This document shows, in pieces, positions 2,881 to 56,602 of a stretch of DNA of 64,000 nt. The position numbers and the translations under genes are program-made. Positions within the stretch are counted from its first letter, which is position 1. Each line of letters opens with the position of its first letter. Under the pieces are notes generated by a model. It saw only the letters and a list, made by a program, of their open reading frames with translations. It searched no databases and was not told the origin of the DNA. The DNA is from Octopus vulgaris (taxonomy: Eukaryota), in the NCBI GenBank assembly GCA_951406725.2, contig OX597832.1:63860001-63924000 (forward strand), in the 5' to 3' direction.

Positions 2881-2999
2881 TAGTATGAATGGCTGCTTGT
2901 GTAACTGATGTGTGTGTGTGTATATACGCATATATATATGTATATATATGCGTATATATATATTTATGTATATATGAATATGTAATTGTGTGTGTGTGA

Positions 3000-3060
<61 letters not shown>

Positions 3061-3719
3061 AACAATATTTCTATTGACTATTTAGCCGGAAACTAAAATG
3101 GAAGTAATATATTTTCCTTATTTACGTTTCCAGGTGGAATCCATTTTCATAGCGCTAAAGACTATTGTCTATAGTAATACAATATCAGTGTATCTTTTCA
3201 AATACGCCTCTGGTATTGATATAACATACATGTAAATGGTCTTTATTATCAAGTGACAATTATTTTAAAGTGATATAAGGCATCGAGAAAAATGGAAAAA
3301 ATGCATGAAAGCAAAATAATATTTTTTTTCTAATTTTGGCACAAGGGAAGGGGCGAGTCAGAGACATCGACCCCAGTACATGACTGGAACTTGTTTTATC
3401 GACTCCTAAAGAATGAAAGGACAAAGTCGACCTCAGAACATCACAAATCGGAAGAAATGCTGTTGTGAACATCGTCCAAAGTTCTAATGATTCTGACAAG
3501 AATCTAAGACTGCATGCCACATGCATATGTACAGACATGCATAAATGCATGCATGCACACATGTGAACAGTTGCATGTTCAGCGTAGGACATTCTTCCTT
3601 GAATATTTTTTGCATTCTTTCTCCGACATTAACGCCATAATTAGCAGCCTTTTGAAATAAGTGGTCATTCTTCTAATCATTTTTACTAAAGTAACCGTTT
3701 TTCATCAAAATCGTAGGGA

Positions 3720-10942: not shown

Positions 10943-11808
10943 AAATGCAGTAACAGTCAAGTCCGGGAGTTGATGTCATAAGCTAACCTCACTCTCCAAA
11001 ATTGGGCCAAAATTTGAAATAATTTTTATGAAACTTGATGGATCGACAGAATCATTGGAGCTCCAGCGAGTGTCGACCCATCGCCTTAACCCATATATAC
11101 CGCTGGTTGCGTTTTCGCAACGCAAAACCTGCTCCTACTTTTTTGGACATGAACTTGCCAGGAAGCCTCTGACTGATCATACGAAATGCTCTGTAGATAG
11201 TCGACACTCGTAGACAACAGTTGCATACTGTCCTTCTCTCCTCGATTGTAAAAGCTTACCATAACGTTTAATCTAAATACTATGAAATTTTTTATGGGCG
11301 TTACACGAACTAAAGATCGTTAATAAATAAACCAGACTGAGACACCACTCCCTGCTCCATTCACCCACCCCTCACTCTTCTATTGTTTCTTCTCACTGAT
11401 ATAATCCCTCAGTTGACTGAAATGTACAGTTTTAATTACGTTTTCTAATTTCGTCTTCGGACTTCTGATCTATTTATCTCATTCATTTATCTCAGAGCTG
11501 AGAGGAACAAAATGAATGCCGCTTTTGTAATGACTCTAGACTAATTAATACATATAGCCGTCTCTCGCTTTCTAAATCACACGTAAAAACATACACACGT
11601 GCGTGTGTGTGTGATTTGGTGAGAGGTGGCTATGTGTATCTACTAATGTGTGTGTGTGTGTGTGTGTGTACATAGATAAATTATCGAATCACAAGAAAAC
11701 AAGTATTATGTCATCAACGTAACTATCTTGCAGACGTTTTTGCCATGAGAAGCAGCACATGCAGAGCTGAGTGCTCTGCTTTTTGTAGCAGAAACAGCTG
11801 TAACCTAA

Positions 11809-12039
11809 GGCAGCGAGCTGGCAGAAACGTTAGCACGCCGGGCGAAATGTTTAGCGGTATTTCGTCTGCCGTTACGTTCTGAGTTCAAATTCCGCCGAGG
11901 TCGACTTTGCCTTTCATCCTTTCGGGGTCGATAAATTAAGTACCAGTTACGCACTGGGGTCGATATAATCGACTTAATCCCTTTGTCTGTCCTTGTTTGT
12001 CCCCTCTATGTTTAGCCACTTGTAGGCAATAAAGAAATA
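11809..12039 (+). mobile_element. SINE type A (tRNA-derived head, Meta-like core gactttgcctttcatcctttcggggtcgataaa), full length with 19-bp TSD
   Basis: agaaacagctgtaacctaa flanks both sides (11790-11808, 12040-12058); the core resembles the MetaSINE domain from memory; many related copies in the window. Confidence 0.9.
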
Positions 12040-12734: not shown

Positions 12735-13655
12735 CGAGGGAAGTAAAAAATTATCTGCACTTTCGCCATAACATATCTTTATTATTCTTTTCTTCTCTAA
12801 GCACAAGGCCCCAAATTTTGGGGGAGGGGGCCAGTCGATTAGATCGACCCCAGTACGCAACTGTGACTTAATTTATAGACCCCGAAATGATGTAAAGCAA
12901 AGTTGACCTCAGCGGAATTTGAACTCAGAACGTAGAGACAGACGAAATATCGCTAAGTATTTCGCCCGGCGTGCTAACGTTTCTGCCAAACTCACCGCCT
13001 TACATATCTTTATTATTGTCATACTGCCTTCTGCGCATGCGTATTTGTAGTTGGTACTATTGTGATCATGTGATCGAAGTTTGAACCTGACCGTACCATT
13101 TTTCTTTCTGGCTTTATAGTGTAAACAATCCGCTCCACTAGCAATGTGCATCAACGAAGAACAAAGAACAGTGATCCGATCAACTGTGCAAGATACAATG
13201 CTCTGCTGGCCAACAAACTAAAGCCAGCAATTTGTACCAAAAGCCGAAGCCTATTGTCGAAAAAAAGTTTTTGTCGTTGAATGACAATACACGCCCACAC
13301 ACGGCCGCTCAGACAGTTGAAATCATTAAGCAATTGGGTTTTGAGGTGCTGGAACTCCATGCCTACAGCCCAGATCTCGCCCCTTTCGACTATCATATCT
13401 TTGGACCGCTCGAAGATGGTTTAGGAGGTCGTCGATTTCATACGGATGCAGATGTAAAGGAAGCGGTGGATAAATGGTCGTACGACCAACCGAAAACCTT
13501 CTTCATGGAGGGAATAACCAATCTTGTGGAGCGTTGAACGAAGGACATCGAAAAGGAAAGAGATTATATAGAAAAATGACGTACTGATTTATCCTCTGCT
13601 TTTCTGTGAATACATTGGAAAAACAAGAAGACGTATAATTTTTAACTCTCCCTCG
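12735..13655 (+). mobile_element. Internally deleted mariner (DD34D) transposon with TIRs; transposase pseudogene
   Basis: ORF 13232-13537 has DNTRPH...YSPDLAPFDY with 34 residues between the two Asp; TIRs cgagggaagtaaaaaattat / ataatttttaactctccctcg followed by TA. Confidence 0.9.
12787..13001 (-). mobile_element. SINE type A inserted in the mariner, 16-bp TSD
   Basis: acatatctttattatt at 12771-12786 and 13002-13017. Confidence 0.9.
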
Positions 13656-17803: not shown

Positions 17804-17872
17804 CATTATTATTATTATTATCTCAGCCCTTGTGGCCAATAAAAGAATTAATTATTATAATAATTATTATTA

Positions 17873-17940
<68 letters not shown>

Positions 17941-17942
<2 letters not shown>

Positions 17943-18152
17943 GGGGGCGATTTGGCAGAACCGTTAGCACGCCTTGTGAGATGCTTAGAGGTATTCCGTT
18001 TGCTATTAGGTTCTGAGTTCAAATTACGCCGAGGTTGACTTTGATTTCATCCTTTCGGCGGCGATAAAATAAGTACCAGTTACGCACTGAGGTAAATGTA
18101 ATCGACTTAACCCCTCCCCCCAAAATGTCAGGCTTTGTGCCTATAGTTGAAA
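17941..18152 (+). mobile_element. SINE type A within (ATT)n arrays; an opposite-strand partial copy lies at about 17640-17735
   Basis: Similarity to 11809-12039 head and core. Confidence 0.85.
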
Positions 18153-18165
18153 GGATTATTATTAA

Positions 18166-18220
<55 letters not shown>

Positions 18221-18876
18221 GTTGTTGTTGTTGTTGTTGTTGCTGTTAATGAATCACAGTTGAAGATGAACAAAAATTAGTTTATAAGAAGCATATGATG
18301 AGGTATGTTATGCTATGTGATATCTGTAGAAATATGTTATAATATCTGATATCTCACTTCACATCACCTCCATTTCTCTCTTCTGACCTTCCACTTCGTC
18401 ATCTTCCCTTCCCCTACCTCTCCTTTCCAACTTAGACCTCGTTCTATTCTCCTTCCTCTTCTACTCTTCACCTGCTCCTCCTCCTCCTCTTTTCTCTCTC
18501 TTTCTCGTCTTCCTCCTCCTCTTGATACGCACTCTCGTACATAGACCGACACATTCGCTCTCAACTGTCTTTTGCACGCGCAAACACATAAACGCATCAC
18601 ACCCATCTACGCTCGTGTTCTTATACGTTCACGCACACACACACGCACACTCCTCTTTACATAAACCTAGGATCAAAAACATTCCAACCGTGACCATCTT
18701 GTATATTTTCTTAGGTATAGATACAAGCATGGCTGTGTTGTAGGAAGTCTGCTTCCCAACCTCATGGTTCTGGGTTCCGTTCCACTGCGTGGCACCTTGG
18801 GCTAATGTCTTCTAAAATAGCCTCGAGCTGACCAAAGCCCTGTGAGTAGATTCGGTGAAAGGAAACTTAAAGAAGC

Positions 18877-21314: not shown

Positions 21315-21925
21315 TAGTAGTTTTATTTTTATAGCGTGCATTCACTTCACTACCGAGCGCAGCTCTGTGTGCCTTGGGTATGTACTGTGGTTTGTTGTGA
21401 TGCTCTGATGGTTATTGTATGGAAAGTGTTCTGCGTAGGATGTGTGCAGTGCCTAGTAGTGCAATTTTCTGTATGTTATATGTGTTTGTAAGTCCTGGTG
21501 TTTTTGTTATGTATTTGTCTGAATATTTTTTTATCATGCCTAATGCACCTACTATGATAGGAATTGTTTCTCTTTTTAGATTCCACATTCTGGTTACCTC
21601 TATTTCCAGGTCGTCGTATTTTGAAAGTTTCTCCATTTCTTTTAGAGACACGTTGTCATCTGCCGGTATTGATACATCAATTAGAAAGCATTTTTTTTCT
21701 TCATGATCTCTGACAACTATATCTGGTCTGTTGGCCTTAATTTCTCTATCTGCGTGTATCGGCATATCCCAGATTATGGTTGCTTTCTCGTTTTCTGTGA
21801 CCTGTTCTGGTGTGTGCCTATACCATCTTTTTTTCTGTTGTTATTCCATAATGTTGGCATAGCTTCCAGTGTATGTACGCTTGGAAGCGTACATACACTG
21901 GAAGCTATGCCAACATTATGGAATA
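21315..21925 (-). mobile_element. 5'-truncated R4/Dong-clade LINE 3' end (restriction-like endonuclease domain) flanked by (TAA)n
   Basis: YIHWKLCQHYGI..WYRHTPEQV.EN..IIWDMPIHADREIKANRPDIVV..CFLIDVSIP..KEMEKLSKY..IPIIVGALG is a PD-(D/E)xK RLE domain; stop at 21412, short 3' UTR, one frameshift in an A7 run near 21830; Dong elements are known to target TAA repeats. Confidence 0.85.
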
Positions 21926-22849: not shown

Positions 22850-23335
22850 TTTTGTATCGTCAGTGTAGCTGTTGCGAGTCTGTGTAATCGAGGAAATGTC
22901 TTTGAGGGCCATCACAAACAGTAGTCATAGTCCTTGGGAGACTTGATGTGTCTTTGGAGAGATTGCCGTTGGTTGCAACTGTCTGATGCCTACCTTTGAC
23001 ATAAAAGTATGCAGTCACTTAAATTTTTTAACTATATCGAAGTCATGCCATTTGTGACATAACATTCTGTGATCAACTTTATCGAAGTTGAAATCTAGCA
23101 GATCCATATTTGAATAATGATTAAGCGTCAATTTCAGTATGCAGTCATAATGCTGTAGGAGCTGTGTGAGGCAGCTCTTTCCTGGACGGAAGCCAAGCAG
23201 AATGTCATTGAGGAAGCCACTTTCTTCTAAGAACATTATCAGATTCTTTCCGACACTGCGTTCTTGCTTAGGTGTAAGGTCAGGGGTCAGGCAGAGCTAT
23301 GATTTTCAGCAACTGTCTTGCTTCCTCTTCTTTGT
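22850..23335 (-). mobile_element. Decayed CR1/L2-group LINE RT fragment
   Basis: GFRPGKSCLTQLL..FDKVDHRML and YTDDTKL motifs. Confidence 0.75.
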
Positions 23336-26237: not shown

Positions 26238-26274
26238 GCACACACTCACACACACACACAATAATAACGATGAT

Positions 26275-26511
26275 AATAGGTTCAAATTTTGGCCCAAGGC
26301 CAGCAATTTCGGGTGAGGGGGGTAAATCGATTACATCGACCCCAGCACTCTACTGGTACTTATTTTATCGACCCCGAAAGAATGAAAAGCAAAGACAACC
26401 TCGATGGAATCGTAACTCAGAACCTACCGACACACGAAATGCCGCCGAGCACTTTTCCCGGAGTGCTGACGATTCTGCCAGCTCGCCGCCTAAATAATAA
26501 TAATAATAATG

Positions 26512-26609
<98 letters not shown>

Positions 26610-27610
26610 CCTTTCTACTACTGGTACAAGGCCTGAAATTTTTGGGGCGGGGACTAGACGAACACGTCAACCCCAGTGTTTCACTGCTACTTGATTTATC
26701 GATCTCGAAAGGATGAAAGGTAAAGTCAGCCTCGGCGTAACTCAGAACGTAGCGACAGACGAAATACCTATTTCTTTACTACCCACAAGGGGCTAAACAT
26801 AGAGGGGACAAACAAGGACAGACAAACGGATTAAGTCGATTGTATCGACCTCAGTGCGTAACTGGTACTTAATTTATCGACCCCGAAAGGATGATAGGCA
26901 AAGTCGACCTCGGCGGAATTTGAACTCAGAACGTAACGGCAGACGAAATACCGCTAAGCATTTCGCCCGGCGTGCTAACGTTTCTGCCAGCTCACCACCT
27001 TGATATAATAATAATGATAATAATAGGAGTGGCTGTGTGGTAAGTAGCTTGCTAGTCAACCACATGGTTCCTGGTCTAGTCCCACTGCGTGGCACCATGG
27101 GCAAGTGTCTTCTACTATAGCCTCGGGCCGACCAAAGCCTTGTGAGTGGATTTGGTAGACGGAAACTGAAAGAAACTGGTCACGTCTGTGTGTGTGTGTG
27201 TGTCTGTCTGTGTCTGTGTGTTTGTCCCCACACCATCGCTTGACAACCGATGCTGGTGTGTTTACATCCCCATAACTTAGCGGTTCGGCAAAAGATACCG
27301 ATAGAATAAGTAGTAGGCTTGCAAAGAATAAGTCCTGGGGTCGATTTGTTCGATTAAAAGGCGCTGCTCCCGCATGGCCGCTGTCATAATGACTGAATCA
27401 AGTAAAAGAATAAATGAATAATTAAAATTTGCGTGGAGGAGATAAGCCACTTACATCGACCCCCAGTACTCAACTAGTACTTATTTCATCGACCCCGAAG
27501 GGATGAAAGGCAAAGTAGACCTCGACAGAATTTGAACTCAGAACCTACAGATGGACGAGGTGCCGCGGAGTGTTTTTCCTGGTGCGGTAACAATTTTGCC
27601 AGCCCTTGCC

Positions 27611-27612
<2 letters not shown>
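26275..27612. mobile_element. SINE cluster: type A (-) 26275-26491, dimeric type A (-) 26610-27001, full type B (+) 27025-27415, type A (-) 27425-27612
   Basis: Mutual similarity among copies; separated by (TAA)n arrays. Confidence 0.85.
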
Positions 27613-27645
<33 letters not shown>

Positions 27646-27699: not shown

Positions 27700-30240
27700 T
27701 TAACCGACATAGTAATACAATCATTGATTCTAATCGGAAAAGTAACTGTTTTCCTGTTTCCTCTTATGAAATACGAAGGCGACTGTAATGAAATAAGTGT
27801 ACCACCCCGCACCCCAGTTGTATCACGATTTGGTACCAGGAATGTTAGTTTTGACTGGCGGAGAGCCATAAAAAAACATGGTAAATTCGTCATAAATGTT
27901 TAGCTGACTTTATGGCATAATTAAGGATTATAACAAGGTTATTTTCTCTGGCCTCTATTATGTAATACGGCAGTTTATTCTGAGATTGCACTGTACACTC
28001 CGCAACAACTTGGATCATGATATGGCTCTAGTGAGGTATATTCTGAGCACTTTATTCCACGGACGACTGCAAAAAAGACCGAGCTGTTTCTTCCAGGAGT
28101 GATCGAAGATCAACTATCATGGAACTGCTTGCCTGTCTCCGCAAGTTAGTCTATCGGATGTGAAGATAAAACAGCTTTGCTTTTGGTGACCCAAGAGCTA
28201 AGTGATTTTCAGCATTTACTTGAGTGATTCCTACAAGAGAAACATTTTAACAAGAAGTAGGTTGTGCATCATTCCTAGGTAGTCTTGCGACGTGTTCGAC
28301 ATCAATGCCTTTGCACAATTGTTAGATAATCGTTGATCCTACTGATTTTTTTGTCCTTCTGAGGTTCTAACAACCTTCCTAATAAGGCTAACCTGGTGAG
28401 TGTGTGTATGTAGGGGAGCCAATTTAGTCACCGGTCACCCGATCATACAACATGGCAGGATTTACCGGACTACATGTTACTAGTAGCACTCGTGATCCAT
28501 CTGGCTTTGAAAAATGAAATCTGAAATCCAATGGACAAATTCCAGTCGAACTCTGTACCAAATATGACCTGGACTTGACAAACGCCATGTTCTAGTTTCA
28601 TCCCCAAATAAGCCTGTGCATGCACCTCTGTTGAGTAGGATCCGTAGGTTCTCTCTTCTCACACTATTGAAAACTTACGTTAAGTTGACGGAAAGTGGTA
28701 CTCGCTGTTCGATAACCTTTTCCTGAATTTGTCGCAAGGAGAAAATTATTCTGATGTTCCTAAATAGACGAAAATTACATTGGCTTTCAGAAAGAGTTTG
28801 CTCGGATATTTATTATGGTCGTATGAGAAATATACGAGAAATAATCATTTTGTTACAATTTTCCCTTTCACAGACAAGAAAGGAATTTCTTGCTCATTTC
28901 AGTCTTTTGGGTCACTTTTCCCCTGTAAATGGTGACTATTCATGTATCATTGAACATTGTAAGACATTACCGTATTGATAAAATTCTCTATTGATTGCAG
29001 AAGTCTTCATCGCCATTCCTTCCCATTCTACTTATTGACTTCATAGCAATGCTGTCAACACCAGGAACTTTCTTAGGTTCTCCAGTCTTCCAGAAACTGT
29101 TTAATACGTCCCAGAACCTGAAAAGAAATTGCTGAGAATCTTTCTAACGAACCAATTGTCATCCATGAACGAGTATGGTGAATTATTTTAAATACCAACG
29201 TAGTTGCGAGTCGACATAAATACCTTTTTACGAGTCGACATAGATACCTTTTTGACTCTTCTACCCATTGGCCGAACGGTACATCGAGGATATGATAGCT
29301 GGAGGGAGAGAGATTTGTACCAGCAATGTAGGATAAAGTGCCTTGCTCCAGAACACAATGTACTATCTGGTCCGGATATTGAACCCACGATATTAGGGTC
29401 GGTTTCATAGTAAAGTAGAATGCTCCCGCCAGCATTTAACACCATTGCTTTTCTCGGTGTATAGATGGAAGTATTTATTCTTCATTGTTATTCTTCTTTT
29501 TTGGACCATATCTTCCCCCAGGCTGGCAACATACAAGTCTTACAAACTGGACATTTCCCTGAGCTTTCTTTCGGTCTTTCAACAGCCACAGTTCCTTTTG
29601 TTGCAAAGTATTCACGTCTATGATTTGCTTTGGTAACTTGCCGTGTACCTCGTCCATGGCATGTTTTTTTTTCAGATAACAGCTGTTGTAACTTCACATC
29701 TTTTTTATCAAACCATTGCGTATGTTTGCCTTTGAAGAAGCCGATTGAAGCAGCAGCTGTTTTCTAGATTGTCACAGCCGACTGCTCTCAACAAGAGAAT
29801 CGGATTGTTTAGTGTCAATTGGTGCAGGGTTGGGTACCGTTTTGAACCTGTTGCTTATCTTCGCTGCAAGCACTCGTTGCATTTAAGGTGCAACGAGTAC
29901 TTGCAGCGCGCATAACCTTTTTTTTCTTTAGTTTTCAGCACTTTGTTGAAATTCTGTCTCCCAGAGAAAATGCCTGCAGCATTTATAGAAATCTAATCAG
30001 TGAAACACTGATTCATAGCACTCTTAAAGCTAATGTCCAAAATAGTCTCTCTGCGAGTAAATAATGTAGTCCATTCGACACAAGTGGCACCAGCTGCAGA
30101 ATCACTTTTCAGGAAGCCAGAAAATGGTGTTTTCCGCGACCAAATTATATTTGGTGTATAGTTTGATTCGGATTTGTGTTGGATTGAAAATTTCATTTTC
30201 CAAAGTCAGGTCATTCAATGGTATTACATGTAGTCCGCAA
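27700..30240 (-). mobile_element. Heavily decayed RTE-like LINE (EN-RT region) with a SINE remnant near 29300-29410
   Basis: Minus-strand remnant KKVPGVDSIA (KAPG.DGI-like) near 29040-29070 and coding-like composition over about 2.5 kb; many stops and frameshifts. Confidence 0.55.
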
Positions 30241-30653
30241 TAAAATGTGTCGTATGGTCGGGTCAGGCAACAGCTACTGAACTCCTTCCACCTATCAGGC
30301 TTGCTTTGTCAGTAAGTTTGTTAGAAACTCGGCAGGGCAACGATTACCTAACAATTGCTCAGGGATGTTGCGGGTGACCGAGGGCACCAAAGGAGCCCAC
30401 GGGAATGGTAGACACCTCCACCTTACACTTTATTTCTTGTTAGAACAGCTTTGTAGGATAGTTTGGTGTAAAAGTCGAGTCATTTAGCTTCTGGGTCACC
30501 GGGTTCTTTCTTAACTCCCTTCTTCCTTTCTTTCTTTCCTCCCTCCTCTCACGCACAGATTTAATCATCCACTCACGTATATATATATGCGTGTGTATGC
30601 ATATGTGTATATGGATGCATAGATGTGTGTGTGTGCATGTATATGTGTATGTA

Positions 30654-30696
<43 letters not shown>

Positions 30697-31321
30697 ATAC
30701 ACACACACATACTATACAAGAATAGATCAATGTAAAATCACAATATTTATACTTGAACTTAAATATGAACATTGTAAGGGAGATAGGCCATAATCGAATA
30801 GTAGAAAAATAAACAAAAAAAGAAGCAGATTGCGAGCATTATTTAATATTTAGAATGCATTTAACTGTTTTTAATGCAGGCTGCGTCTTTGTGAAAATTC
30901 TTTGATTGTTTTTTTATTTTAAATATGGTCATTTTCTTCACCAATTAGCCTCTTGCGCAATATTGTACATACATTTAATAATTATGCCATCACAGTTGTT
31001 GCAAGGATAGTGTAGTTATTCTCTAGCTGAGGAAGTCAAATAATTCCGAAACAAGCTCGATGTTTTCTCCCTTAGCAGCCGAATAATGAACATATTTTTA
31101 TTGTCTAAAGTCTTCTTCTCCTTGGAAGAAATTTTTCAACGGAAAATCTAATCGGTTGTTGTGGAAGCGATCGGAATTAGATTTTGACTCTACTTTTCCC
31201 CCACTGGGAACATACTGGCCACGACGGACACTCGGCGAAAAGCTACCTGAGAGGAGCAGTGCGGGCCGAAACGGTGGTGAACGTACTTCTGCTTCACCTT
31301 TATTAATATTGTTATTGTTCA

Positions 31322-31536
31322 AGGGCAGCGAGCTGGTAGAAACGTTAGTACGCCAGGTAAAATGCTTAGCGGTATTTCATCTGTCTTTACGTTCTGAGAT
31401 CAAATTCCGCCGAGGTCGACTTTGCTTTTCATCCTTTCGGGGTCGATAAATTAAGTACCATTTGCCTACTTGGGTCGATCTAATCGACTGGCCTCCCCCA
31501 CCATCCCCCCAAAATTTTGGGCCTTGAATAGAAAAG
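31322..31536 (+). mobile_element. SINE type A with 15-bp TSD
   Basis: aatattgttattgtt at 31305-31319 and 31537-31551. Confidence 0.85.
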
Positions 31537-32168
31537 AATATTGTTATTGTTTAGCTTCATTTCCCCCATGATTAAACCTATCTTTTATGAAGGACGTTCC
31601 AGCCATGACATGTCACTTTGATTTAAAAAGAATTTTTAAACAATATGTGTAAGATTAAATGATTTAAAATCGTTCTTTTTGTCATTACGGTCCGATGTAA
31701 TTTATTTGAGGGAAATTTAGCAGTTATTTCTAACAAGTTGACGTGTCACATATTTGCTTCTTCGTTGACGAAATGAGGTTATAGCGTTTGAGTCGACGAG
31801 TTTGTATGTATGTGCGTATGTCTGAGTAGGATGTGTGTGTGTGTGTTTATAGTTGGATGTATGTGTGTCTGAGAGTGCTGTTCAAACTGACGAAATGAGG
31901 TACTTGTAAACATTCGCAAGAATCACTTTGTCTTACAGTTATAAGCAACTCTTGTCATATTATAAGGCGAGGGAATCCTCTGACACCTACTTCAAGATCA
32001 TCAGCAGCGTTGTCATCGTCTTCGTTGCTGTCATCGTCATCATCATAATCATCATCATCATCTCTGATGTCGTTGGCGTCATTGCCATCATATCTGAAAT
32101 TATATAAAACAGTTAACAACTGTTCCCTACATTTAATTTCATTCAGTTGGAACGACAACGAGCGATGA

Positions 32169-32255
<87 letters not shown>

Positions 32256-32304
32256 TGTGTGTATGTACACACACAGACACACACACACACAAACACACAT
32301 ACAC

Positions 32305-32339
<35 letters not shown>

Positions 32340-32449
32340 GACACACACAGACACACACAGACAAACACACAGACACACGCACACACAAACATACACACTC
32401 ACGCAAAACTCTTTTTAAAGGTTCATTGCCACTACGTGGTATTTTAGAT

Positions 32450-32515
<66 letters not shown>

Positions 32516-32724
32516 GTATGCCTGTTACACTGCACAGCTTGACAACCGGCGATGGTTTGTTTACATCACCATTACGTACACATCGGCGAAAGAAACTGAT
32601 TTAAGTACCCGACTTAAATTAATTTCTGGGGTGAGGTGGGGAAATGATCAATTTAATTAAATCCCTGTAAGCAGTACCCCAGCATGAACGCAAGTCTAAC
32701 GACTAAAACAAAATATTATATATA

Positions 32725-32985
32725 TAAAGGACCCCACCAATCAGTTATAAGTGACCATGGGATTGCACCTGGATAGTGTCCATCCGAGGCACAAGCACGG
32801 GCAAGGTTATTTCTGGGAGAACCAGCATTCGCCCATGCATATCAGCCGCCTCCTCTCCGCGCCTCGATGTTATTCAAGGGAAAGGCAAAGGGACCGATAC
32901 AACTTGGCACCAGTGACGTCGCAACTCAATTCTACAGCTGAGTGAATTGGAGCAACGTGAAATAAAGTGTCTTGCTCAAGAACTG
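32725..32985 (-). mobile_element. SINE type C body and tail lacking its tRNA head
   Basis: Reverse complement gttcttgagcaagacactttatttcacgttgctcca..cactcagctg matches the 49920-49966 core. Confidence 0.75.
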
Positions 32986-33052
32986 AACACACACACGCAC
33001 ACACATGCACACACACGCACACACACGCACACACACGCCACACACGCACACA

Positions 33053-33125
<73 letters not shown>

Positions 33126-33126
33126 G

Positions 33127-33195
<69 letters not shown>

Positions 33196-33739
33196 ACACA
33201 CACAAAACTTTACACCATTTATTCCAGTCTTGTTTTCTTTTGTCTATGTGCAAATGTCCTTTCAACCTTCCGAATGCAAATACTACAAACGACGGCATTT
33301 TTGATTTTCACTCTTCTGAGACCAATGAAATATATTCTCAATCACGTACAGACGACTATTTTAATTGGTATTTATTGATGTACGTCGACATTTGAAGTGA
33401 AATAAATTATAGCAAAGGGAGATAAATCTAAGTAAGTCAAGGGAGGTAACTCGTACAAAGACTTTAAACTTGAAATTTTATTCAGATACGTACTAAAGAG
33501 AAACTATGAAACTATGAATAGTTTGAATTCATTGCACTTTATGAAGACGCATGAATATCACCAGATCCATACATTTAAAACCTTATGAATAGGACTACAT
33601 CGACGTAGCTGCTCCATAGTCGCGTGATTTGCTTACAATAATATCGCAGCGTCTTAAATAATAGTACCTGTGGTGAACAAATAACGGCAGGAAAATAACG
33701 ACGGAAGATGAGGTCGGGTTCGGGTCTGAGAGTATAAAA

Positions 33740-34345
33740 AAAACGGAAAAGAAAGATATCGATCTATCAGCCTAAAGTGCTTTAGAAGACCAAGGTACGA
33801 GTTACTTTTCCTATTGTTCGAGCCCACACTATCCTGGCGTGCATCCAGAATAGCGTTAAAGTTTCCCAACATAACTAGTGTCTTTGATGTTACAAGGAAA
33901 TTCTCCAGGCATCGATAGAAATCATTCTGTTTGCCTACGATACTAGGCGTGTAAATGCTAATCAACCTGAAAGCTTTATCCCTGAATGTTAGATCCAGAA
34001 CGACCAACTCGCCTTCTTGGTCCACAAGGATCGTACATATCTGTAGAGCCAAGCTTTATCAGAGCAAAACTACGCCTCCCTGCCCTCCGGTCTGGCTAGG
34101 AGACGTAATTTTTTCCATAGCCGTTTAAAAGAGTCGAGAAGTCCTGCAGCTTGTCCAACTTGGTCTCAGTAGTCACCATCACATCTATTGTATGGGACCT
34201 GGGGTCGTTGAGGAAACCAGCTTGCTTCCACTTTGAGTTCAGGCCTCGCACACTCAAAATTATGCTGAGTGCAGCCGTGTCGAATGATTTTATTTCTTCC
34301 CCGTGGAAGAGTAGCGTGGCCAAAACCCATGCGACCTCCACTTCA
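33740..34345 (-). pseudogene. Tx1/L1-like apurinic endonuclease (APE) fragment
   Basis: LSVRGLNSKWKQ..VMVTTETKL, GELVVLDL..FRLISIYTPS..LVMLGNFNAILD correspond to the (N)VRGL, QET, IYAP and GDFN motifs; frameshifted. Confidence 0.8.
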
Positions 34346-34424
34346 GTAGAGGTATATCGACGTAGCTGCACCATGGTCGCGTGATTTAGCTTCACATTAC
34401 GTTCCATCATATCCCGTCACATGT

Positions 34425-34678
34425 GACGGAATGTGAATGGAATGTGAATGGAGTGCCAATGGAATGTGAATGTGAATGAAATGCGATTGGAATGTAAATG
34501 GAATGTGAATGAAATGGAATGTAATGGAATGCAAATGGAATGTAAATAGAACGAGAATGGAATGTGAATAGGACGTGAATGGAATGCAAATGGAATGTCA
34601 ATGGAATGTGAACGGAATGCGGATGTAAAGCGATGGAATGCAATGTAGTGTGATACAATGTCATGTGATGGAATGGAT
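34425..34678. repeat. Degenerate GGAAT(GT)GAAT satellite-like array
   Basis: Repeated ggaatgtgaat / ggaatgcaaat units. Confidence 0.9.
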
Positions 34679-34825
34679 ACCCTGAATATATTTCACGCAT
34701 CTGCTTCACTTTGCATCCTCTTTGTCCTCCTTGTTAAAATCATTCTTTGAAATGGCAATTTTATTCTAAATGTTTGAAAAATAGAAGAGAATAAATAAAG
34801 TGTGACAAATGTCAAACAACCTAAA

Positions 34826-35928
34826 CTGAACGATTTGCAGTCATCTTCATAAATATTTCCCAGGTGTTCTGGGCACACCAGACCAAGGGACCATTAAACC
34901 ACCGACACAAGCAAATAAGGCAGCTGCTACGTGGTCAGCTGTATAGTTAGAAATAGCAGTCTAATCTCCCTCAGATCATATCCTACTGTCATAATGAGAG
35001 AGAGAGAGAGGAAACGGAACTCTAAAAGGGAAGCAGACATCTCGGACGTTATCTTATGTTAGGTAAGACCAATGATGGTAAGAAAAGATAGAAGAGAAAG
35101 CAGTTGATGACATGGTTGTTAAGGAGTTGTTTACCATTGATGTGTTGGATATTAGGAGCAGAATGTTCGAGAATTATATTCCATTCTTGGTGGTAACCGG
35201 AGTATTGTACAGTTGCTCCACGTAGAGAATCAATGAAGGAGCCAGCAAACCCACCGACTATGATGACTGGCCACTGGACTGGACTCCCGTGGAGCTTCCG
35301 TTGGTTGATGGTCAACAATAGTGTTAAATAGTAAGTAACACCGATAATCAAACCACAAAGAGCACTGCAGAGTAAACCGACAAAGGATACGGAACCACTG
35401 GTCCCTATGGGAACTTTTCTTGATGTTGTGTTAAGTCGTGAACTTACTAACTGGCTAGAACCGATGACAATGCCAAATTCCGAGGCAAATATGTCTCCAC
35501 AGGAACATGCCAGTGCACTCAACACAGCTGTTGACATCCATGATGCCTGGTAGTGGTTAACAAAATCCACTGGAAATTATTTCATGCCAATATCTATGAG
35601 ACACATCAGGCTGATTTCGCTGACCACTCCGTCATTGCATACAACCTGCACCCAGTTGCGCTGGCTGCCCTCTTTGAAGTTTTCCTCAAAGGACCTTTTT
35701 TACTGCTGCGGAATTTTGTGCTAGAGGATGCTGTGAAGAAGAAGAAGTAGCAGTATCTTTTTATGACAGTAGGATGTGATCTGAGGGAGTTTAGACTGCT
35801 ATTTCTAACTACACAGCTGACCACGTAGCAGCTGCTTTATTTGCTTGTGTCGGTGGTTTAATGGTCCATTGGTCTGTTGTAGCCAGAACACGTGGGAAAT
35901 ATTTGTGAAGATGACTGCAATCGTTCAG
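34826..35928. repeat. Inner inverted repeat pair (34826-34994 and 35761-35928)
   Basis: ctgaacgatttgcagtcatcttca...tcctactgtcataa versus ttatgacagtagga...tgaagatgactgcaatcgttcag, highly similar by eye. Confidence 0.9.
35049..35752 (-). pseudogene. TMEM19: Intronless TMEM19 (DUF92) pseudogene fragment, C-terminal two-thirds
   Basis: FKEGSQRNWVQVVCN..VDF..Y.ASWM..VLSALACSCGDIFASE..KVPIGTSGSVSFVGL..QWPVI..FIDSL.GATVQYSG..HINGK.LLNN matches TMEM19 hallmarks (EGGQRNWVQV, GDTWASE, KVPVGTNGG, DSxLGATxQY); frameshift near 35695 and in-frame TAA at 35577-35579. Confidence 0.9.
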
Positions 35929-36538
35929 GAACCCAACAGACAGGGCACTAAAAGTCTCAAGAAGTATTCAGGGATTTCCGGTGGAAGGCAACACTGGTTA
36001 AAAGCACTGTTGAAATAGTAGAAGCTATACCTCGCCAGGGAGTCACAGCTTCATCGCCTCAATCTTGAAAGATGATTCCGTAGAAAACTTTGAAGACCCA
36101 ACAACAAAATCCGAAAATATCAGCAACACCGGCGAAGACAATATACAAGATCAAAAACTGTCCCTCCGAGTCGGAAGTCTCATAGTCTCTCTTTAATACG
36201 TATCTAAAGAAAAGTTGAAATTTCAATGCTTTTTAAGAGTTACCTCCCGTGATATACTTAGAGTTATCTCCCTTAGCTGTAATTTATTTTATTTCAAAGG
36301 TCGACAAATATCAATAAATACCACTTAAAATAGTCATCTGTACGTGATTGAGAATATATTTCATTGGTCCCAGAAGAGTGAAAATCAAAAATGCCGCCGT
36401 TTGTAGTTTTTGCATTCAGAAGGTTGAAAGGACAATTACACAAACACGTAGACAAAAGAAAACAAGACTGGAATAAGTGGTGTAAAGTTTTGTGTGTGTG
36501 TGAGAGTGTGTGTGTGTGTGTGAGAGTGTGTGTATGTG

Positions 36539-36579
<41 letters not shown>

Positions 36580-36590
36580 GTGTGTGTGAA

Positions 36591-36678
36591 GGTGCATGGC
36601 TCAGTGGTTAGAGCGTTGTGCTCATAATTATGAGGTAACCAGTTCGATTCCCGGACCAGGTTGGTGTGTGTTGTGTTC
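36591..36678 (+). mobile_element. Isolated tRNA-derived SINE head (type C)
   Basis: A box tggctcagtggttag and B box agttcgattccc; no tRNA acceptor stem closure; truncated at gtgttgtgttc. Confidence 0.7.
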
Positions 36679-37062
36679 AAGAATTTTACTTCCTCTTCCT
36701 CTCCTCCTCTCTTTCAAATCTCCCTCCTTGGAATGTTTAAAATCCTTCCTCCACTTCCCCCTCTCCCGAATGTTGAAAAATCCTTCCCCCCTTCTTCCCC
36801 TTCCCTTCAAAAATACCCCTCACTGGAATGTTCAAGAATTCTTTTTCCTCTTACTCTCTTTCCTCCCCTTCCTCCTCTCAAATCCTCAGCCATGTACTAA
36901 AGTCGATGCTACTTTTTCCCCTCGTTACGTTACACAAAAGAATAACGCATTGCGAAGCTAGTAAGGGAAATAACTTTTGTGGCTTAGGGGAGATAATTCT
37001 TACATGCCGTTGTCATTCTCGTTTATTTTGTCTATAGAAGTGCCATAAATGGCAAAAATACT

Positions 37063-37179
37063 CCACGTGCGTTTGTTTATGTTTTTCGACAAGATCGTTG
37101 CTTTCCGTAAAATATTTTTTTTTTATATGTGGCATGGGGGAGGAGGAAGGGGATCTTTTGAAGTTGGCGTAAAAGCGAA

Positions 37180-37211
<32 letters not shown>

Positions 37212-37680
37212 CGAGAGAGAGAGCGAGAGCGAGAGAGAGAGCGATTAGATCAGGGAAGTTATCTTTTGATGTCGGCGTGAAGCGAAGGGATGTATGTGTG
37301 TGTATGTGTGTGTGTGAGGGAGGGAGAGAGATAACTGAAATTTTTTAATTCACTTTTTGTAGTGAGTGATTAGGATTAGAGTGATTAGTGATTAGGGTTT
37401 GTAGTGAGTGATTGATTGGGAGAGGTTTATGTATGTATGTATGTATGTATGTATGTATGTATGTATGTATGTATGTATGTATGTATGTATGTATGTGTGA
37501 TTGGCTTCAGTGACACACACGCACGCACGCATACACAAAAGCATACATAGTACACCTATTGCATACTTGTTTTTTGTACGCATACATATTCATGTGCGTG
37601 TGCATTATTTACTGTTCTTAGTGAGTGAATGTGTGAGTGATTGACAAAGAAAAAGAGAGAGGTTTTTATGTATGTATGTA

Positions 37681-37720
<40 letters not shown>

Positions 37721-37858
37721 TATATGTATATGTATGCATGAATGTATATGTATGTTTGTGTATGTATGTATATGTATCTATACGTATGTATGTATTTGCA
37801 TGAATATGTATATATATGCATGTATGTATATATTTATGCATGTATATATATAGGTATG

Positions 37859-37898
<40 letters not shown>

Positions 37899-37978
37899 AT
37901 ATAGATATATATGTACGTATATGTATATATATATATATATGTATATGTATATATATGTATATGTATATATAAGTATGC

Positions 37979-38022
<44 letters not shown>

Positions 38023-38241
38023 GTATGCATATATATATATATATATATATGTGTATATATGTATGTATATCTATATATATGCATGTACGTATATGTATAT
38101 GTATACATATGTATATGTATGTATATATATATATGTATGTATATATATATGTATATGTATGTATATATATATATACACATACATGTATATGTCTCTTTCG
38201 CTTTTACGCCGACTTCAAAAGATCCCCTTCCTTCCCCACCA

Positions 38242-38301
<60 letters not shown>

Positions 38302-38380
38302 CGTGCGTGTGTGTTTGTATGTATATAAAATCTTACGGAAAGCGACGATCTTCTTCAGAAACATAAATAGATGCACGTGG
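37063..38380. mobile_element. Foldback element with ~120-bp TIRs and a microsatellite-filled interior
   Basis: ccacgtgcgtttgtttatg..aagatcgttgctttccgtaa..ggggatcttttgaagttggcgtaaaagcgaaagag (37063-37184) is mirrored at 38192-38243 and 38327-38380, with a TA/TG tract interrupting the right arm. Confidence 0.75.
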
Positions 38381-38394
38381 TTTGAGAAGTGACA

Positions 38395-39620
38395 TACACT
38401 GTGCGAAAATAGAAATATCACCCCCCTCTCATTTTGTCTCAGTTGTTAACATTTAACACAATGACAAACATTTCATAATGATTGCTGTGCACGCTAAAAT
38501 TGACAGTTTGAATAAAAGGAAAAGAAAACGCAACACCAACTCCGAAAATAAAACTATTTTAAAGAATCAAAAGATATAAACTAGATTATGGTTGCGCGAT
38601 AACAGTTTATCCAAAGTAGCTACCTCAGTTTCCACCAGGGCCTCAAAACGGCTCTGGACCCTGCTGCTCATGTTCCTCAGTCTGTCTCTGGGAATATCTT
38701 CGAACACCTCCTTGATCTTGGCCACAAGCTCAGCCTTGATGTTACAGATAGTGCGATGTCTTTCTAGTCCTCGCCCGAACAGAGACATCCATGGCATTAC
38801 AGTCGGGGAAATTAGGAGGTCAGAATCTGGGGCTTGTTCCGGAAGTATGGCAAGGACCCCAATCCTGCTATCATACATATGGCTTTCCAGTAGCATTCCA
38901 GCGTCTGACCACGGTAATGCAACTTTACAAAGTCGTCTGAATTTAGCCTAAGGCACTGTCCGAAGATATGAGGCGGCGTAACATCAACCTCACCAAAGAC
39001 ATCACATTTGAGGAAACTTGGTTTTCATGAGAACTTAGTTTTCAGCCTTTGTCAAAAAGCATTGAGTCATGATGTCAGCATTTTGACACTTTTGTCCAAT
39101 ATTGTTTTCTACTCTAGGCACAAGGCCAGAATTTTTTTTTTTGGGTGGGGGCAGTCGATTAGATCAATCTTAATTTACCGACCTCGAAACGATGAAAGGC
39201 AAAGTCGACCTCGGCGGAATTTGAACTCAGAATGTAAAGACAGACGAAATACCTATTTCTTTACTACCCACAAGGGGCTAAACACAGAGGACAAACAAGG
39301 ACAGACAAAGGGATTAAGTCGATTATATCGACCCCAGTGCGTAACTGGTACTTATTTAATCGATCCCGAAAGGATGAAAGGCAAAGTTGATCTCGGCGGA
39401 ATTTGAACTCAGAACGCAGCGGCAGGCGAAATACCGCTAAGCATTTTGCCAGCTCGCCGCCTTCTGCCCAATATTCAGATGGTCCTCTATGACAGCTGAC
39501 TTTTTCTCAAATACAACTTTAATGTCTACGCTCTCCAACGTTGTTGACTGTTCACAAATATATCAATCTGTTAATGAAAAATAGAAACATAAATAGATCG
39601 ACAAATTTAGCCAGAATGCC
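38395..39620 (-). mobile_element. Decayed Tc1/mariner-superfamily (maT/DD37D-like) transposase remnant
   Basis: Minus-strand remnants LMKTKFP, PYV..QDWGPCHTS, PPNFPDCNAMD and LVAKIKEVF..SRFEALVE; interrupted by a SINE; D-D spacing cannot be counted because of deletions. Confidence 0.7.
39104..39464 (-). mobile_element. Dimeric SINE type A with 11-bp TSD
   Basis: tgtccaatatt (39093-39103) and tgcccaatatt (39465-39475); two cores in tandem. Confidence 0.8.
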
Positions 39621-39791
39621 CAGCATATTGAAAAGGTTGCTGCTAGGAGGAGCCACAACAAAGCACGAACAAGTCTGGAATTGTTTTCTGTTTTTGCCAA
39701 TGAAAATATCGTTTATATTCTAGACATAGGAAGGCTTCACGTTGTTATGTTTTTATTTTTTTTTGGTAGAGGTTAGTGGCGTAGCTTGGAA

Positions 39792-39860
<69 letters not shown>

Positions 39861-40521
39861 CGTCGGGGAGTTCGTGGTGATCCGCCCCAGGCGGATCGAT
39901 TTCGAACGGGTGAAAGGCGAAGAAGAACGTTGGAATTTGAATTCTGAATGGAAGGAACCGGAACATGTATAAAGCAGGTTATTTCTTCCGTTGTTCCAAA
40001 GATTCTATCCGACCGACGCCTTTAAAATTGAGCTGTAGAGATTGGTTGATACCATCGATCACGGTCTGGTGTTCTTTTATTATTGTAAGAACTCCAAAAG
40101 AATGAATGGCGAAGTTGACCCCGCTATGATCTGAAACCAGGATGTAAAGATCCGATGCTGTTACGATTCTGCCAATTCACTGACCGCAAGAATAACTGTC
40201 ACAACAATAACAACATCGACAACGAAAGTGGGTCACTCGCTTCTGTGAAGTATGAAATAAAAAAAACATAAAAATACCTGCAACACATGTTGTCAAAATC
40301 TTTATTTTATTTAAAAACGATATAATCGTTATGCTTTACAAAATCTTGTATTGTTCGTTTGTTTGTTTATGCAATCGTATTGACATTTATAGAAATACAA
40401 ACAAATGAAGAAAAAAAAAACAGAAAATAAAGAACTAAAAAAATTGGTGAGAAAACTTTATCACGCCAAAAAGAAACCCTCTCATACATGTATATGTGTA
40501 TGTGTGTACATATAGACATTG

Positions 40522-41459: not shown

Positions 41460-46510
<5,051 letters not shown>

Positions 46511-49083: not shown

Positions 49084-49841
49084 CTTTCATATGTGCTGTT
49101 CACTTTATGTCCTGTAATATAATTAATTTCAAACGAATAAATGTGCAATAAATAAATAAATCGACAATAAATTTGTCAAGAATAACAATGTAATTAAAAA
49201 CGTAATTAAAACAATACATCATATTTATTACAATCAGATTGTGAACGAGACGAAGTGTAAGAAATTGTTTTGTTTTTATATGAAAGTTTTAATTTTCTAA
49301 TGTGTATATTATCACATATTTCTATAATCATGAAAGCTTAATTATAATGATAATATTGTTTGTTTGCTGGTGTCGTTTAGCCCTAGGTCAGTCCTGATCC
49401 AGTAAACGTATGAATAAGTTTCGTTTTAATCCTTTTGATTCCAATCTGCCTAAGACCATCCTGGTTCTATGATACAAAATTTCATGATTGAGAGTGATCT
49501 GAATGAAAACCACCGTAATAATTAAAAATTGACACACCAAACATCAGATTAATAATGACCGTATTGGAAAAGTTTAATTGTAATGAAGGCAATGGATTTA
49601 AAGAGATTAACCTCGATAAACCTGTATATTTTATTTTCGCTATTGGACATTCATATATTCAGACTTATGTCACTATCTTGGTGGATATAATGATTAACGC
49701 TTCTATCGTTGTAGCTTAGACCTTCTTAATGTCCTTTTCGTATTTAGTAACCTTTTCAGAATTTGCCACAGTAGCCTTTATTAAATGTACTAGGGTAGCT
49801 TGAATAAATTTACACTCGTATTTAAATCATATATATATATA

Positions 49842-50163
49842 GGCGCGTGGCTTAGTGGTTAGGGGCAATCGGCTCATGAACGTAAGGTTGTGAGTTCAAT
49901 TCCCGGCGACGCGTTGTGTCCTTGAGCAAGACACTTTATTTCGCGTTGCTCCATTCCACTCAGCTGGCAAAAATGAGTAGTACCTGTATTTCAAAGGGTC
50001 AGCCTTGTCACACTCTGCGTCACGCTGAATCTCCCCGAGAACTACATGTTAAGGGTACACGTGTTTGTGGAGTGCTCAGCCACTTGCACATTAATTTCAC
50101 GTGCAAGCTGTTCCGTTGATCGTATCTGCTGGGACCCTCATCGTCGCAACCGACGGAGTGCTC
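49842..50163 (+). mobile_element. Full-length SINE type C in a (TA)n tract
   Basis: A box tggcttagtggttagg, B box gagttcaattccc, core gtgtccttgagcaagacactt; TA repeats on both sides. Confidence 0.85.
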
Positions 50164-50568: not shown

Positions 50569-50894
50569 TGTATGTATGTATGTATGTATAGTTGTAATAA
50601 TGAAGTCAAACCAAATAATGATATTTCGTAAACTTTCCTCAGAATTCAAATATTGTGCACCGCTTCTTAGCGTAGCACGAAATATATACTGACCCTCGGA
50701 TATATGTGTGTATGCTGTCTTCATAATTGCACATGATAGCTGGGTTTGGTAAGTGATTGATGAAATGCCATTACTTGCTAATTAAGCATAGATAAATTTA
50801 TGCAAGTTTTCTTTTGTGTGTAATTTATCGCACACAATCATTTATATAGAATGTAGTTGGTAGAAGGATGGTACTGGAACAATTGTAACTAATA

Positions 50895-51102
50895 CTGGTT
50901 TTAAATTTTGGCACAAGGCCAGCAATTTCTGGGTTAAGTCGATTACATCGACCCCAGTACTCAACTGGTACTCATTTTACCCATCCCTAAAAGATGAAAG
51001 GGAAAATCGACCCCGGCAGAATTTAAACTCAGAACGTAAAAATGGATGAAACACTGTTAAACATTTTCCCGGCAGCGAACGATTCTGCCAGCTCGCTGCC
51101 TT
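50895..51102 (-). mobile_element. SINE type A with 14-bp TSD
   Basis: aattgtaactaata (50881-50894) and aattgtaattaata (51103-51116). Confidence 0.8.
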
Positions 51103-51195
51103 AATTGTAATTAATATTTAACTTCGGCTATATTGATATCTTCAACGTCTTCCGTGTTCGTTATATATATACACATAAAAACACATATATGTATG

Positions 51196-55939: not shown

Positions 55940-56602
55940 GGAAAGGGAAGTTGATCTCGGCGGGATTTGAACTCGTAACATTTTGTCCAAACTCTAACGT
56001 TTCTGCAGGTTCATAATTCATATTGGTTTCAAATTTTGACACAAGGCCAACGATTTCAGAGGAAGCGGGGTAAGTCGATTATATCGACCCCCAGCGATCA
56101 ACTGTTACTTATTTCATCGACCCCCGAAAGGATGAAAGGCAGAGTCGACCCCGGCGGAATTTGAATTCAGAACGTAATGACGGACGAAAAGCCGTTAAGC
56201 ATTTAGTCCGACATGCTAACGATTCTGCCAGTTCGCCGCCTTAGATTTATAATTCGTATTAATAATGATTTAGGTACAAAATCACAAAGCTTTGCAGGAG
56301 GGGAAGAAAAGTGGAGTCGACCTCGGCCGGATTCAAGTTGAGAACAAGAGATAGCACATCATTAAATAATGGAAAGAATTTACTCTGGTATCTTGCGATT
56401 TTGGGCATAATGCCAACTATGGGAGAGGATTAGTCGATACCACCGATCTCGGAATTTGAATGGTACTTCATTTTATCACCCCACCCCGAGGGATGAGAGT
56501 CAGAGTTTATCTCCGGCGGTATTTGAACTGAAAACAAAAAACATCAGAAGGAACACCGCAACTTTTGTTCGACGCTCCAACGACTCCATCATCTCGTCGC
56601 CT
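55940..56602 (-). mobile_element. Cluster of type A SINE copies
   Basis: Best copy 56025-56242; further diverged copies on either side. Confidence 0.75.

What the first reader, a model, noticed from the sequence alone, without database searches (positions are those of the whole stretch)
34826..35928. Intronless TMEM19 pseudogene tightly bracketed by its own ~169-bp inverted repeats
The right arm (35761) begins about 10 bp from the 5' break of the TMEM19 homology, and the left arm ends about 55 bp beyond the stop. The ~700-bp fragment is uninterrupted over a region that is multi-exonic in vertebrates, which suggests an mRNA-derived copy, yet it has no poly(A) tail or direct TSD as expected from LINE retroposition. 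Inference: cDNA was captured between transposon ends, or a hairpin-mediated repair event occurred. Read-through transcription would give a long dsRNA stem with a TMEM19 loop, a possible ADAR or small-RNA substrate.
Basis: partly seen in the sequence, partly recalled or inferred. Interest (0 to 1): 0.7.

Follow-up and report, generated by a model that had tools for sequence, protein, structure and literature searches.

The report
Octopus retrocopy with inverted repair scar
This is a dead, intron-free copy of the octopus TMEM19 gene in which a piece of its own untranslated tail was pasted backwards into the coding part, likely during DNA repair; it is an ordinary genomic scar, not a transposon carrying a gene.

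Summary
The inverted repeat is real (34826-34994 / 35761-35928, 10 mismatches in 168 nt), but it does not bracket the pseudogene. TMEM19 homology continues beyond both arms: the retrocopy runs from about 36150 to at least 34673 (minus strand). The parental mRNA, seen in RNA contigs, shows that the left arm is simply the gene's 3'UTR and the right arm is an inverted copy of that UTR (35747-35928), inserted into the coding sequence in place of about 40 nt, with a 4-nt microhomology. Parental genomic contigs break at about five positions that the window copy runs through, so it is a processed copy. Depth indicates one parent and one retrocopy, with no family and no convincing target-site duplication, so transposon capture is rejected. 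The insertion is shared by four labelled organisms and looks about half as old as the retrocopy, which favours a later templated-insertion repair event. A second, older inverted duplication (33109-33513 / 36176-36588) abuts the 5' junction. A transcript would fold into a long stem, but no transcript of the locus was shown. Ordinary; interest low.

The parts
34673..36150 (-). Processed TMEM19 pseudogene, 5'-truncated near codon 13; 3' end not located (at or below 34673)
   Evidence: One 1675-nt RNA contig (run X18, record 24) fits 34673-34994, 35017-35701 and 35925-36150 in order; its last 45 letters do not fit beyond 36150; tblastn
35925..36150 (-).
35747..35928 (+). Right arm: inverted copy of the gene's own 3'UTR (about 180 nt) inserted into the coding sequence, replacing about 38-41 nt (residues about 89-101); 4-nt overlap 35925-35928 shared by coding sequence and UTR
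   Evidence: Parent mRNA has 84 letters where the window has 223 (35701-35925). UTR-type contigs match out to 35747 (X4 record 12; X14 record 5) and to 35928 (X1 record 6)
35054..35746 (-). Coding part 2 (about residues 102-339); stop at 35579-35577, frameshifts near 35701 and 35101, 9-nt loss at 35253, 9-nt gain at 35441
34995..35016 (-). (CT)n junction where about 270 nt of the parental 3'UTR, including the inner 14 nt of the left arm, were lost
   Evidence: Joint 34994-35017: 22 letters in the window, 291 in the parent mRNA; junction present in DNA run X1
34826..34994 (-). Left arm: ordinary stretch of the retrocopied 3'UTR, inferred template of the insertion
   Evidence: Parent mRNA matches 34673-34994 with 29-32 differences in two RNA runs
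35756..35809 (+). Fragment of a high-copy dispersed repeat at the inner end of the right arm (mirror at about 34946-34994)
   Evidence: Summed DNA depth 32845 at 35758-35801 against about 65-73 in unique bins of X1; many unrelated RNA contigs match only here
34673..34825 (-). Distal 3'UTR of the retrocopy, with an AATAAA at 34760-34765
36176..36588 (+). Outer inverted repeat, right copy, starting about 25 nt from the retrocopy's 5' junction; ends in (TG)n followed by the head of a SINE-like repeat
   Evidence: 87.7% over 413 nt; 34 mismatches in 309 non-microsatellite columns; flank comparison
33109..33513 (-). Outer inverted repeat, left copy; ends in (TG)n followed by the body of the same SINE-like repeat

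Best explanation
This is a single processed (intron-free) TMEM19 pseudogene whose left arm is its own 3'UTR and whose right arm is an inverted copy of that UTR sitting inside the coding sequence, most likely written there by microhomology-primed template switching during DNA repair or replication after the retrocopy had integrated. Shown: processed structure, identity of both arms, about 40 nt of coding sequence replaced by about 180 nt, a 4-nt microhomology at one junction, a single copy, and presence in four labelled organisms. Inferred: reverse transcription by a LINE enzyme. Inferred: a broken or stalled end in the coding sequence annealed to the opposite-orientation UTR about 1 kb away (distance before the later UTR deletion), copied about 180 nt and rejoined further on. 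Inferred: a later (CT)n-associated deletion brought the left arm close to the stop codon. The locus is most likely neutral debris.
For: Parent mRNA is collinear with the window outside and between the arms and contains the left arm (near-complete in 2 of 4 RNA-labelled runs, two studies). Contigs about 90-95% alike end with long unlike tails at 35196 (3 of 4 DNA runs), 35404 (3 of 4), 35665 (1 of 4) and 36057 (1 of 4), and a 22-letter side ends near 35946 (3 of 4), as expected for exon ends. The coding piece starts at 35925 and the UTR piece ends at 35928, giving a 4-nt overlap. The retrocopy has gathered about 0.066-0.075 changes per site (39-44 of 281 residues against three Octopus proteins). 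Two arms of that age should differ at 17-23 of 168 sites, but 10 are seen (P 0.04-0.001). The outer junction is bridged in 4 of 4 DNA runs, and the orthologous copies differ from the window by 1.8-3.5%. There are three stops and at least three frameshifts. Inverted templated insertions flanked by microhomology are a described germline class (PMC8421209, passages).
Against: No organism with the retrocopy but without the insertion was seen (0 of 4 DNA runs), so the order of events rests on a clock with small counts, and gene conversion between close inverted arms would give the same deficit. Inner and outer repeats do not differ significantly in divergence when compared directly (Fisher P 0.07). 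Size and distance exceed the usual polymerase-theta scars (3-30 bp, PMC7165422) and the 100-bp template window of PMC8421209. Microhomology at the inner junction could not be read. Intron GT/AG ends were not displayed; introns are inferred from where contigs stop matching.
Confidence: 0.72

Rival explanations
1. The inverted segment arose during retrotransposition itself. The reverse transcriptase or a repair polymerase switched templates twice, once onto the UTR and once onto flanking DNA at the 5' junction (the outer repeat), and the inner arms were later kept alike by gene conversion.
For: Both repeats have the same geometry: later plus-strand sequence is an inverted copy of earlier plus-strand sequence. 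The outer repeat starts about 25 nt from the 5' junction, and its 11% divergence fits the retrocopy's age (P 0.2-0.64). L1 insertions with fold-backs, inversions and templated insertions are described (PMC11702581, passages).
Against: The inner arms are more alike than expected. About 7 of the 12 parent-versus-right-arm differences in 147 nt appear to be shared by both arms (inferred), although the parent's UTR also evolves.
Confidence: 0.17
2. A staggered-break inversion duplicated the UTR piece at its two ends, and recombination between the copies later flipped the interior back.
For: It gives the same final layout (reasoning from the anatomy).
Against: It needs two events. No inverted interior appeared among the joints of four DNA runs; the one opposite-strand joint is the left arm.
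Confidence: 0.05
3. The locus is a transcribed hairpin kept by selection, feeding ADAR or Dicer and acting on the parental TMEM19 3'UTR.
For: The arms pair almost end to end in the predicted fold (-483 kcal/mol for 1116 nt, no shuffles). They are about 90-92% alike to the parent's UTR, and the insertion is present in four organisms. Octopus has very high hyper-editing (PMC5625713, passages).
Against: The 10 arm mismatches are 5 transversions and 5 transitions, split 3 and 2 between the strands on which they would form G-U pairs, as in neutral decay. The left arm lost its inner 14 nt in the window's lineage. The same paper reports that long near-perfect dsRNA-forming loci are unusually common in octopus (4.4e-3), so the structure alone is not special.
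Confidence: 0.04
4. A cDNA was captured between the terminal inverted repeats of a DNA transposon.
For: Inverted arms flank a gene piece, and the inner third of the arms is repeat-derived.
Against: The gene continues outside both arms; the left arm is in the parental mRNA; the outer two thirds of the arm sit at only about 3-4 times single-copy depth (right arm, left arm, parent); there is one retrocopy and no TSD.
Confidence: 0.02

Closest known systems
Processed pseudogenes (retrocopies) made by LINE reverse transcriptases
   Same: Introns lost, 3'UTR retained, 5' truncation, single dispersed copy, stops and frameshifts.
   Different: No poly(A) or TSD found, although the 3' end was not located. 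It carries an internal inverted duplication, not the usual twin-priming 5' inversion, which flips sequence without duplicating it (own knowledge).
Microhomology-mediated templated insertions (MMBIR-type, PMC8421209; polymerase-theta TINS, PMC7165422)
   Same: An inverted copy of nearby sequence replaces a short deletion, with microhomology at a junction, fixed in the germ line.
   Different: About 180 nt long and templated about 0.75-1 kb away; larger and further than typical theta scars. The enzyme is unknown.
Au76, the mouse Rangap1 pseudogene that yields endo-siRNAs in oocytes (PMC6223193, one review passage; the hairpin form of Au76 is recalled, not read)
   Same: A pseudogene about 90% alike to its parent, able in principle to form long dsRNA.
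   Different: No transcript, small RNA or effect on the parent has been shown here.
Pack-TIR / Pack-MULE elements (PMC8277862, passages)
   Same: Gene sequence lies between inverted arms.
   Different: The arms are not transposon ends but the gene's own UTR; no TSD, no family; that paper discards intronless copies of multi-exon genes as retroduplicates.

Membership tests
Processed pseudogene | Parent has introns that the copy lacks | tested here: met
   Parent-type DNA contigs stop matching at about five positions; mRNA and window run through them; splice dinucleotides not displayed
Processed pseudogene | Collinear with the mature mRNA, including 3'UTR | tested here: met
   X18 record 24 and X17 records 17 and 19
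Processed pseudogene | Disabling stops or frameshifts | tested here: met
   Three stops, at least three frameshifts and the insertion
Processed pseudogene | Poly(A) tail and target-site duplication | tested here: inconclusive
   None found, but the 3' end lies at or below 34673 and was not located; the copy is about 7% decayed
Microhomology-mediated templated insertion | Insert is an inverted copy of nearby sequence, with a small deletion at the site | tested here: met
   223 letters in the window against 84 in the parent; arms
Microhomology-mediated templated insertion | Microhomology at the junctions | tested here: inconclusive
   4 nt at the outer junction; parental letters at the inner junction not seen
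Microhomology-mediated templated insertion | Arose in DNA after integration | tested here: inconclusive
   The clock favours it; no insertion-free orthologue among 4 DNA runs
Pack-TIR / TIR transposon with cargo | Arms are the termini of a transposon family and delimit the cargo | tested here: not met
   The gene extends past both arms; the left arm is in the parental mRNA
Pack-TIR / TIR transposon with cargo | Target-site duplication or several copies | tested here: not met
   Only a 3-mer near the ends; single-copy depth
Pseudogene hairpin endo-siRNA locus (Au76-like) | Can form a long stem | tested here: met
   (prediction)
Pseudogene hairpin endo-siRNA locus (Au76-like) | Transcribed through both arms | tested here: inconclusive
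   No contig 99% or more alike among 163 laid from 4 RNA-labelled runs; contigs cannot show absence
Pseudogene hairpin endo-siRNA locus (Au76-like) | Dicer-dependent small RNAs or editing; effect on the parent | not testable with these tools
   Needs raw small-RNA and matched DNA/RNA reads

The most novel reading that the evidence does not exclude
An accidental inverted insertion turned a dead octopus retrocopy into a hairpin-RNA gene. Read-through transcripts would form a stem of about 170 bp whose both strands match the parental TMEM19 3'UTR, giving edited dsRNA or endo-siRNAs that act on the parent, and the structure has been kept across at least four octopus lineages.
Probability: 0.04. 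Interest if true: 0.55.

Novelty: new member of a known kind. Interest (0 to 1): 0.13.

Why it matters
As read here it matters little: it is a well-resolved example of a retrocopy with a templated-insertion scar, and a usable shared marker for the octopus lineages that carry it. It also shows how an internal duplication can mimic a transposon with cargo when only part of the gene is noticed. If the locus were transcribed and diced or edited, it would be a dated case of a hairpin-RNA regulator arising from its own target gene in an animal with very heavy RNA editing.

Tried and rejected
No whole genome is held for this window, so no genome-wide copy count or direct parent sequence was possible; read depth and contigs stood in. 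The run search listed no RNA holder of the stretch; this is no evidence on expression. In 4 RNA-labelled runs, 0 of 163 laid pieces were 99% or more alike and 6 were 95-99% (5 in X14, 1 in X15). X14 lacks the parental mRNA and probably holds DNA, so its pieces were not counted as transcription. X14 record 4 (retrocopy-like, unlike beyond 35668) first suggested a second, intron-bearing copy; I set this aside because it and X4 record 10 are reciprocal, both switch within 35669-35701, and are best read as assembly chimeras of parent and retrocopy (inference, not proven). A fossil of A-to-I editing in the retrocopy was looked for and not found: the matching class (C>T on plus) is 8 of 108 listed places in X18, while changes from G/C in the parent to A/T in the window make up 55. 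An early functional retrogene phase was considered because 17 of 33 listed differences are synonymous (33 coding rows of the 40 shown, 75 more not shown); transition bias and the parent's own changes can account for it, so it is not claimed. Rfam on 30000-40000 gave 93 matches, none at gathering score and none on the arms. ARAGORN found 0 tRNAs. The endonuclease-like frames at 33654-34290 got no hit in Pfam, the protein search or PDB. Two look-ups of earlier scan findings returned nothing. Paper searches listed nothing on an octopus TMEM19 pseudogene (listings only). No supplements were read.

Full report
Setting. The window is AT-rich, full of microsatellites and dispersed repeats. The best protein hit is Octopus sinensis TMEM19 (83%, E 1.5e-100; 10 hits among 417 candidates), whose cluster also holds the O. 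bimaculoides and O. vulgaris proteins. The window is therefore read as an octopus genome. No whole genome was available.

The observation. The inner inverted repeat is real: 34826-34994 against 35928-35761, 93.5%, E 3e-68, with 10 mismatches in 168 aligned letters and one gap. It is one of 3 inverted pairs of at least 100 nt and 85% within 3.5 kb in the window. The interior encodes a DUF92 domain. But tblastn with the octopus protein gives a second block on the far side of the right arm, from residue 13 at 36154. The right arm therefore interrupts the gene rather than ending it.

The parental mRNA. Four RNA-labelled runs were laid on 34670-36485 at 80% likeness. In X18 one 1675-nt contig fits three blocks in order: 34673-34994 (32 differences), 35017-35701 (56) and 35925-36150 (27). 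X17 shows the same in two contigs, X15 in part, and X14 not at all. Four facts follow. The left arm is part of the parent's 3'UTR. Between 35701 and 35925 the parent has 84 letters and the window 223; since 35702-35746 is still coding sequence, about 38-41 nt were replaced by about 180 nt. Between 34994 and 35017 the parent has 291 letters and the window 22, so the short distance from stop codon to left arm is the result of a deletion. The parent's first 45 letters do not fit beyond 36150, so the copy is 5'-truncated. The match runs to the lower edge of the stretch, and the X17 contig goes on for 604 letters, so the 3' end of the retrocopy was not found.

Introns and copy number. Four DNA runs of four labelled organisms were laid on 35010-36300 at 82% (32 pieces listed, 1014 not shown). 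X1 reproduces the window with 0-1 differences per unique piece and holds the left deletion junction; it may be the window's own source and is not independent support. A second class of pieces, about 90-95% alike and carrying the parent's indels where these are covered, ends with 50-695 unlike letters at 35196 (X1, X5, X7), 35404 (X4, X5, X7), 35665 (X1) and 36057 (X4). A 22-letter side ends near 35946 (X1, X4, X5). The mRNA and the window pass through all of these points, so they mark introns of the parent. The breaks fall at or near glycine codons; I recall human TMEM19 having introns at equivalent codons, but no call checks that. Depth in unique bins of X1 is about 65-73 for the retrocopy and 45-66 for parent pieces, which fits one copy each. 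Bins 35846-35933 show about 190-245 (right arm, left arm, parental UTR); the bin 35758-35801 shows 32845, a dispersed-repeat fragment. Summed depth is not a strict copy number.

The insertion. The parent's coding block begins at 35925 and its UTR block ends at 35928, so four letters fit both sides. At the inner end, two contigs match the right arm out to 35747 (X4 record 12; X14 record 5), 14 nt further than the window's left arm, so the template was the UTR before the deletion. X4 record 12 stops at 35920, where the window's left arm has its extra base, and has 9 differences; I infer it is the left arm of organism B without the deletion, which would make that deletion recent. The outer junction is bridged in 4 of 4 DNA runs and the inner junction in 2 of 4 among the listed pieces (X5, X7).

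Order of events. Against three Octopus proteins the retrocopy differs at 39-44 of 281 aligned residues, about 0.066-0.075 changes per site if neutral (four in-frame pieces, about 58 residues left out at the 5' end, the insertion and the frameshifted C-terminus). For branch lengths of 0.055-0.075, two arms as old as the retrocopy should differ at 17-23 of 168 sites; 10 do (P 0.037-0.001). The outer repeat differs at 34 of 309, as expected for that age (P 0.21-0.64). Orthologous copies differ from the window at 19 of 1075 (B), 45 of 1282 (C) and 46 of 1320 (D) sites, counted on listed retrocopy-type pieces only. The simplest order is: retrocopy (with the outer duplication at about the same time), inverted insertion, split of the lineages, UTR deletion. 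Gene conversion between the inner arms could fake the second step, and a direct inner-versus-outer test is not significant (P 0.07). At three of the listed sites where named proteins differ, the parental transcript agrees with O. sinensis and O. vulgaris while the retrocopy agrees with O. bimaculoides, which also points to an old insertion.

The outer repeat. 33109-33513 and 36176-36588 are 87.7% alike in inverted orientation; the right copy starts about 25 nt from the retrocopy's 5' junction. Each ends in (TG)n. The right one is followed by sequence matching the first part of a repeat at 49841-49906, and the left by sequence matching its continuation at 49918-49966. This looks like a local inverted duplication of flank rather than transposon termini. 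Fold-backs and templated insertions at retrotransposition sites are described for L1 (PMC11702581, passages).

Function. A transcript across 34820-35935 would fold into a long stem. No transcript was shown, and the data at hand cannot show absence. The arm mismatches show no preference for keeping pairs on either strand, and the coding sequence carries three stops and at least three frameshifts.

Comparison with known systems. It is a processed pseudogene (three defining features met, tail and TSD unresolved). The insertion works like a microhomology-mediated templated insertion (PMC8421209 and PMC7165422, passages), though longer and more distant than typical polymerase-theta scars. It fails the Pack-TIR tests (PMC8277862, passages). 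It resembles Au76/Rangap1 only in potential (PMC6223193, one passage). Octopus editing background is from PMC5625713 (passages). All six papers were seen as search passages only.

Verdict. New member of known kinds; interest 0.13.

Noticed in passing
window 33109-33513 and 36176-36588: Older inverted duplication (88%) abutting the retrocopy's 5' junction, with complementary halves of one SINE-like repeat beyond the two (TG)n ends; its divergence fits the age of the retrocopy.
   Followed up: partly
window 33596-34392 (minus strand): Two frames with motifs that I recall from LINE apurinic-endonuclease domains (33654-34055, 34096-34290), lying between 40-nt direct repeats at 33596-33634 and 34353-34392 (90%); no database hit was obtained.
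   Followed up: partly
window 34428-34660: 11-nt minisatellite directly downstream of the mapped 3'UTR; it could be part of the parental UTR or the tail of a retroelement.
   Followed up: no
window 35669-35701: About 33 nt apparently identical in parent and retrocopy; contigs switch between the two loci here (X14 record 4, X4 record 10), most likely assembly chimeras, possibly gene conversion.
   Followed up: partly
window 36147: Organisms C and D carry 12 more letters at the retrocopy's 5' end than the window.
   Followed up: no
window 21412-21840 (-), 13175-13537 (+), 38567-38947 (-), 23015-23296 (-), 2435-3070 (-): Decayed frames that by eye resemble retroelement endonuclease or reverse-transcriptase pieces and mariner-type transposases; only 23018-23296 had a weak RVT_1 match (E 5e-4).
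   Followed up: no
window 11802-12039, 12780-13005, 17851-18241, 26258-27645, 31300-31551, 39100-39450, 50879-51118, 56014-56269: A dispersed repeat of 170-250 nt in many copies and both orientations; one pair (11806-11974 / 12833-13002, 88%) is another close inverted repeat.
   Followed up: no
window 42000-46500: Very AT-rich tract (GC about 21%) made almost wholly of microsatellites.
   Followed up: no
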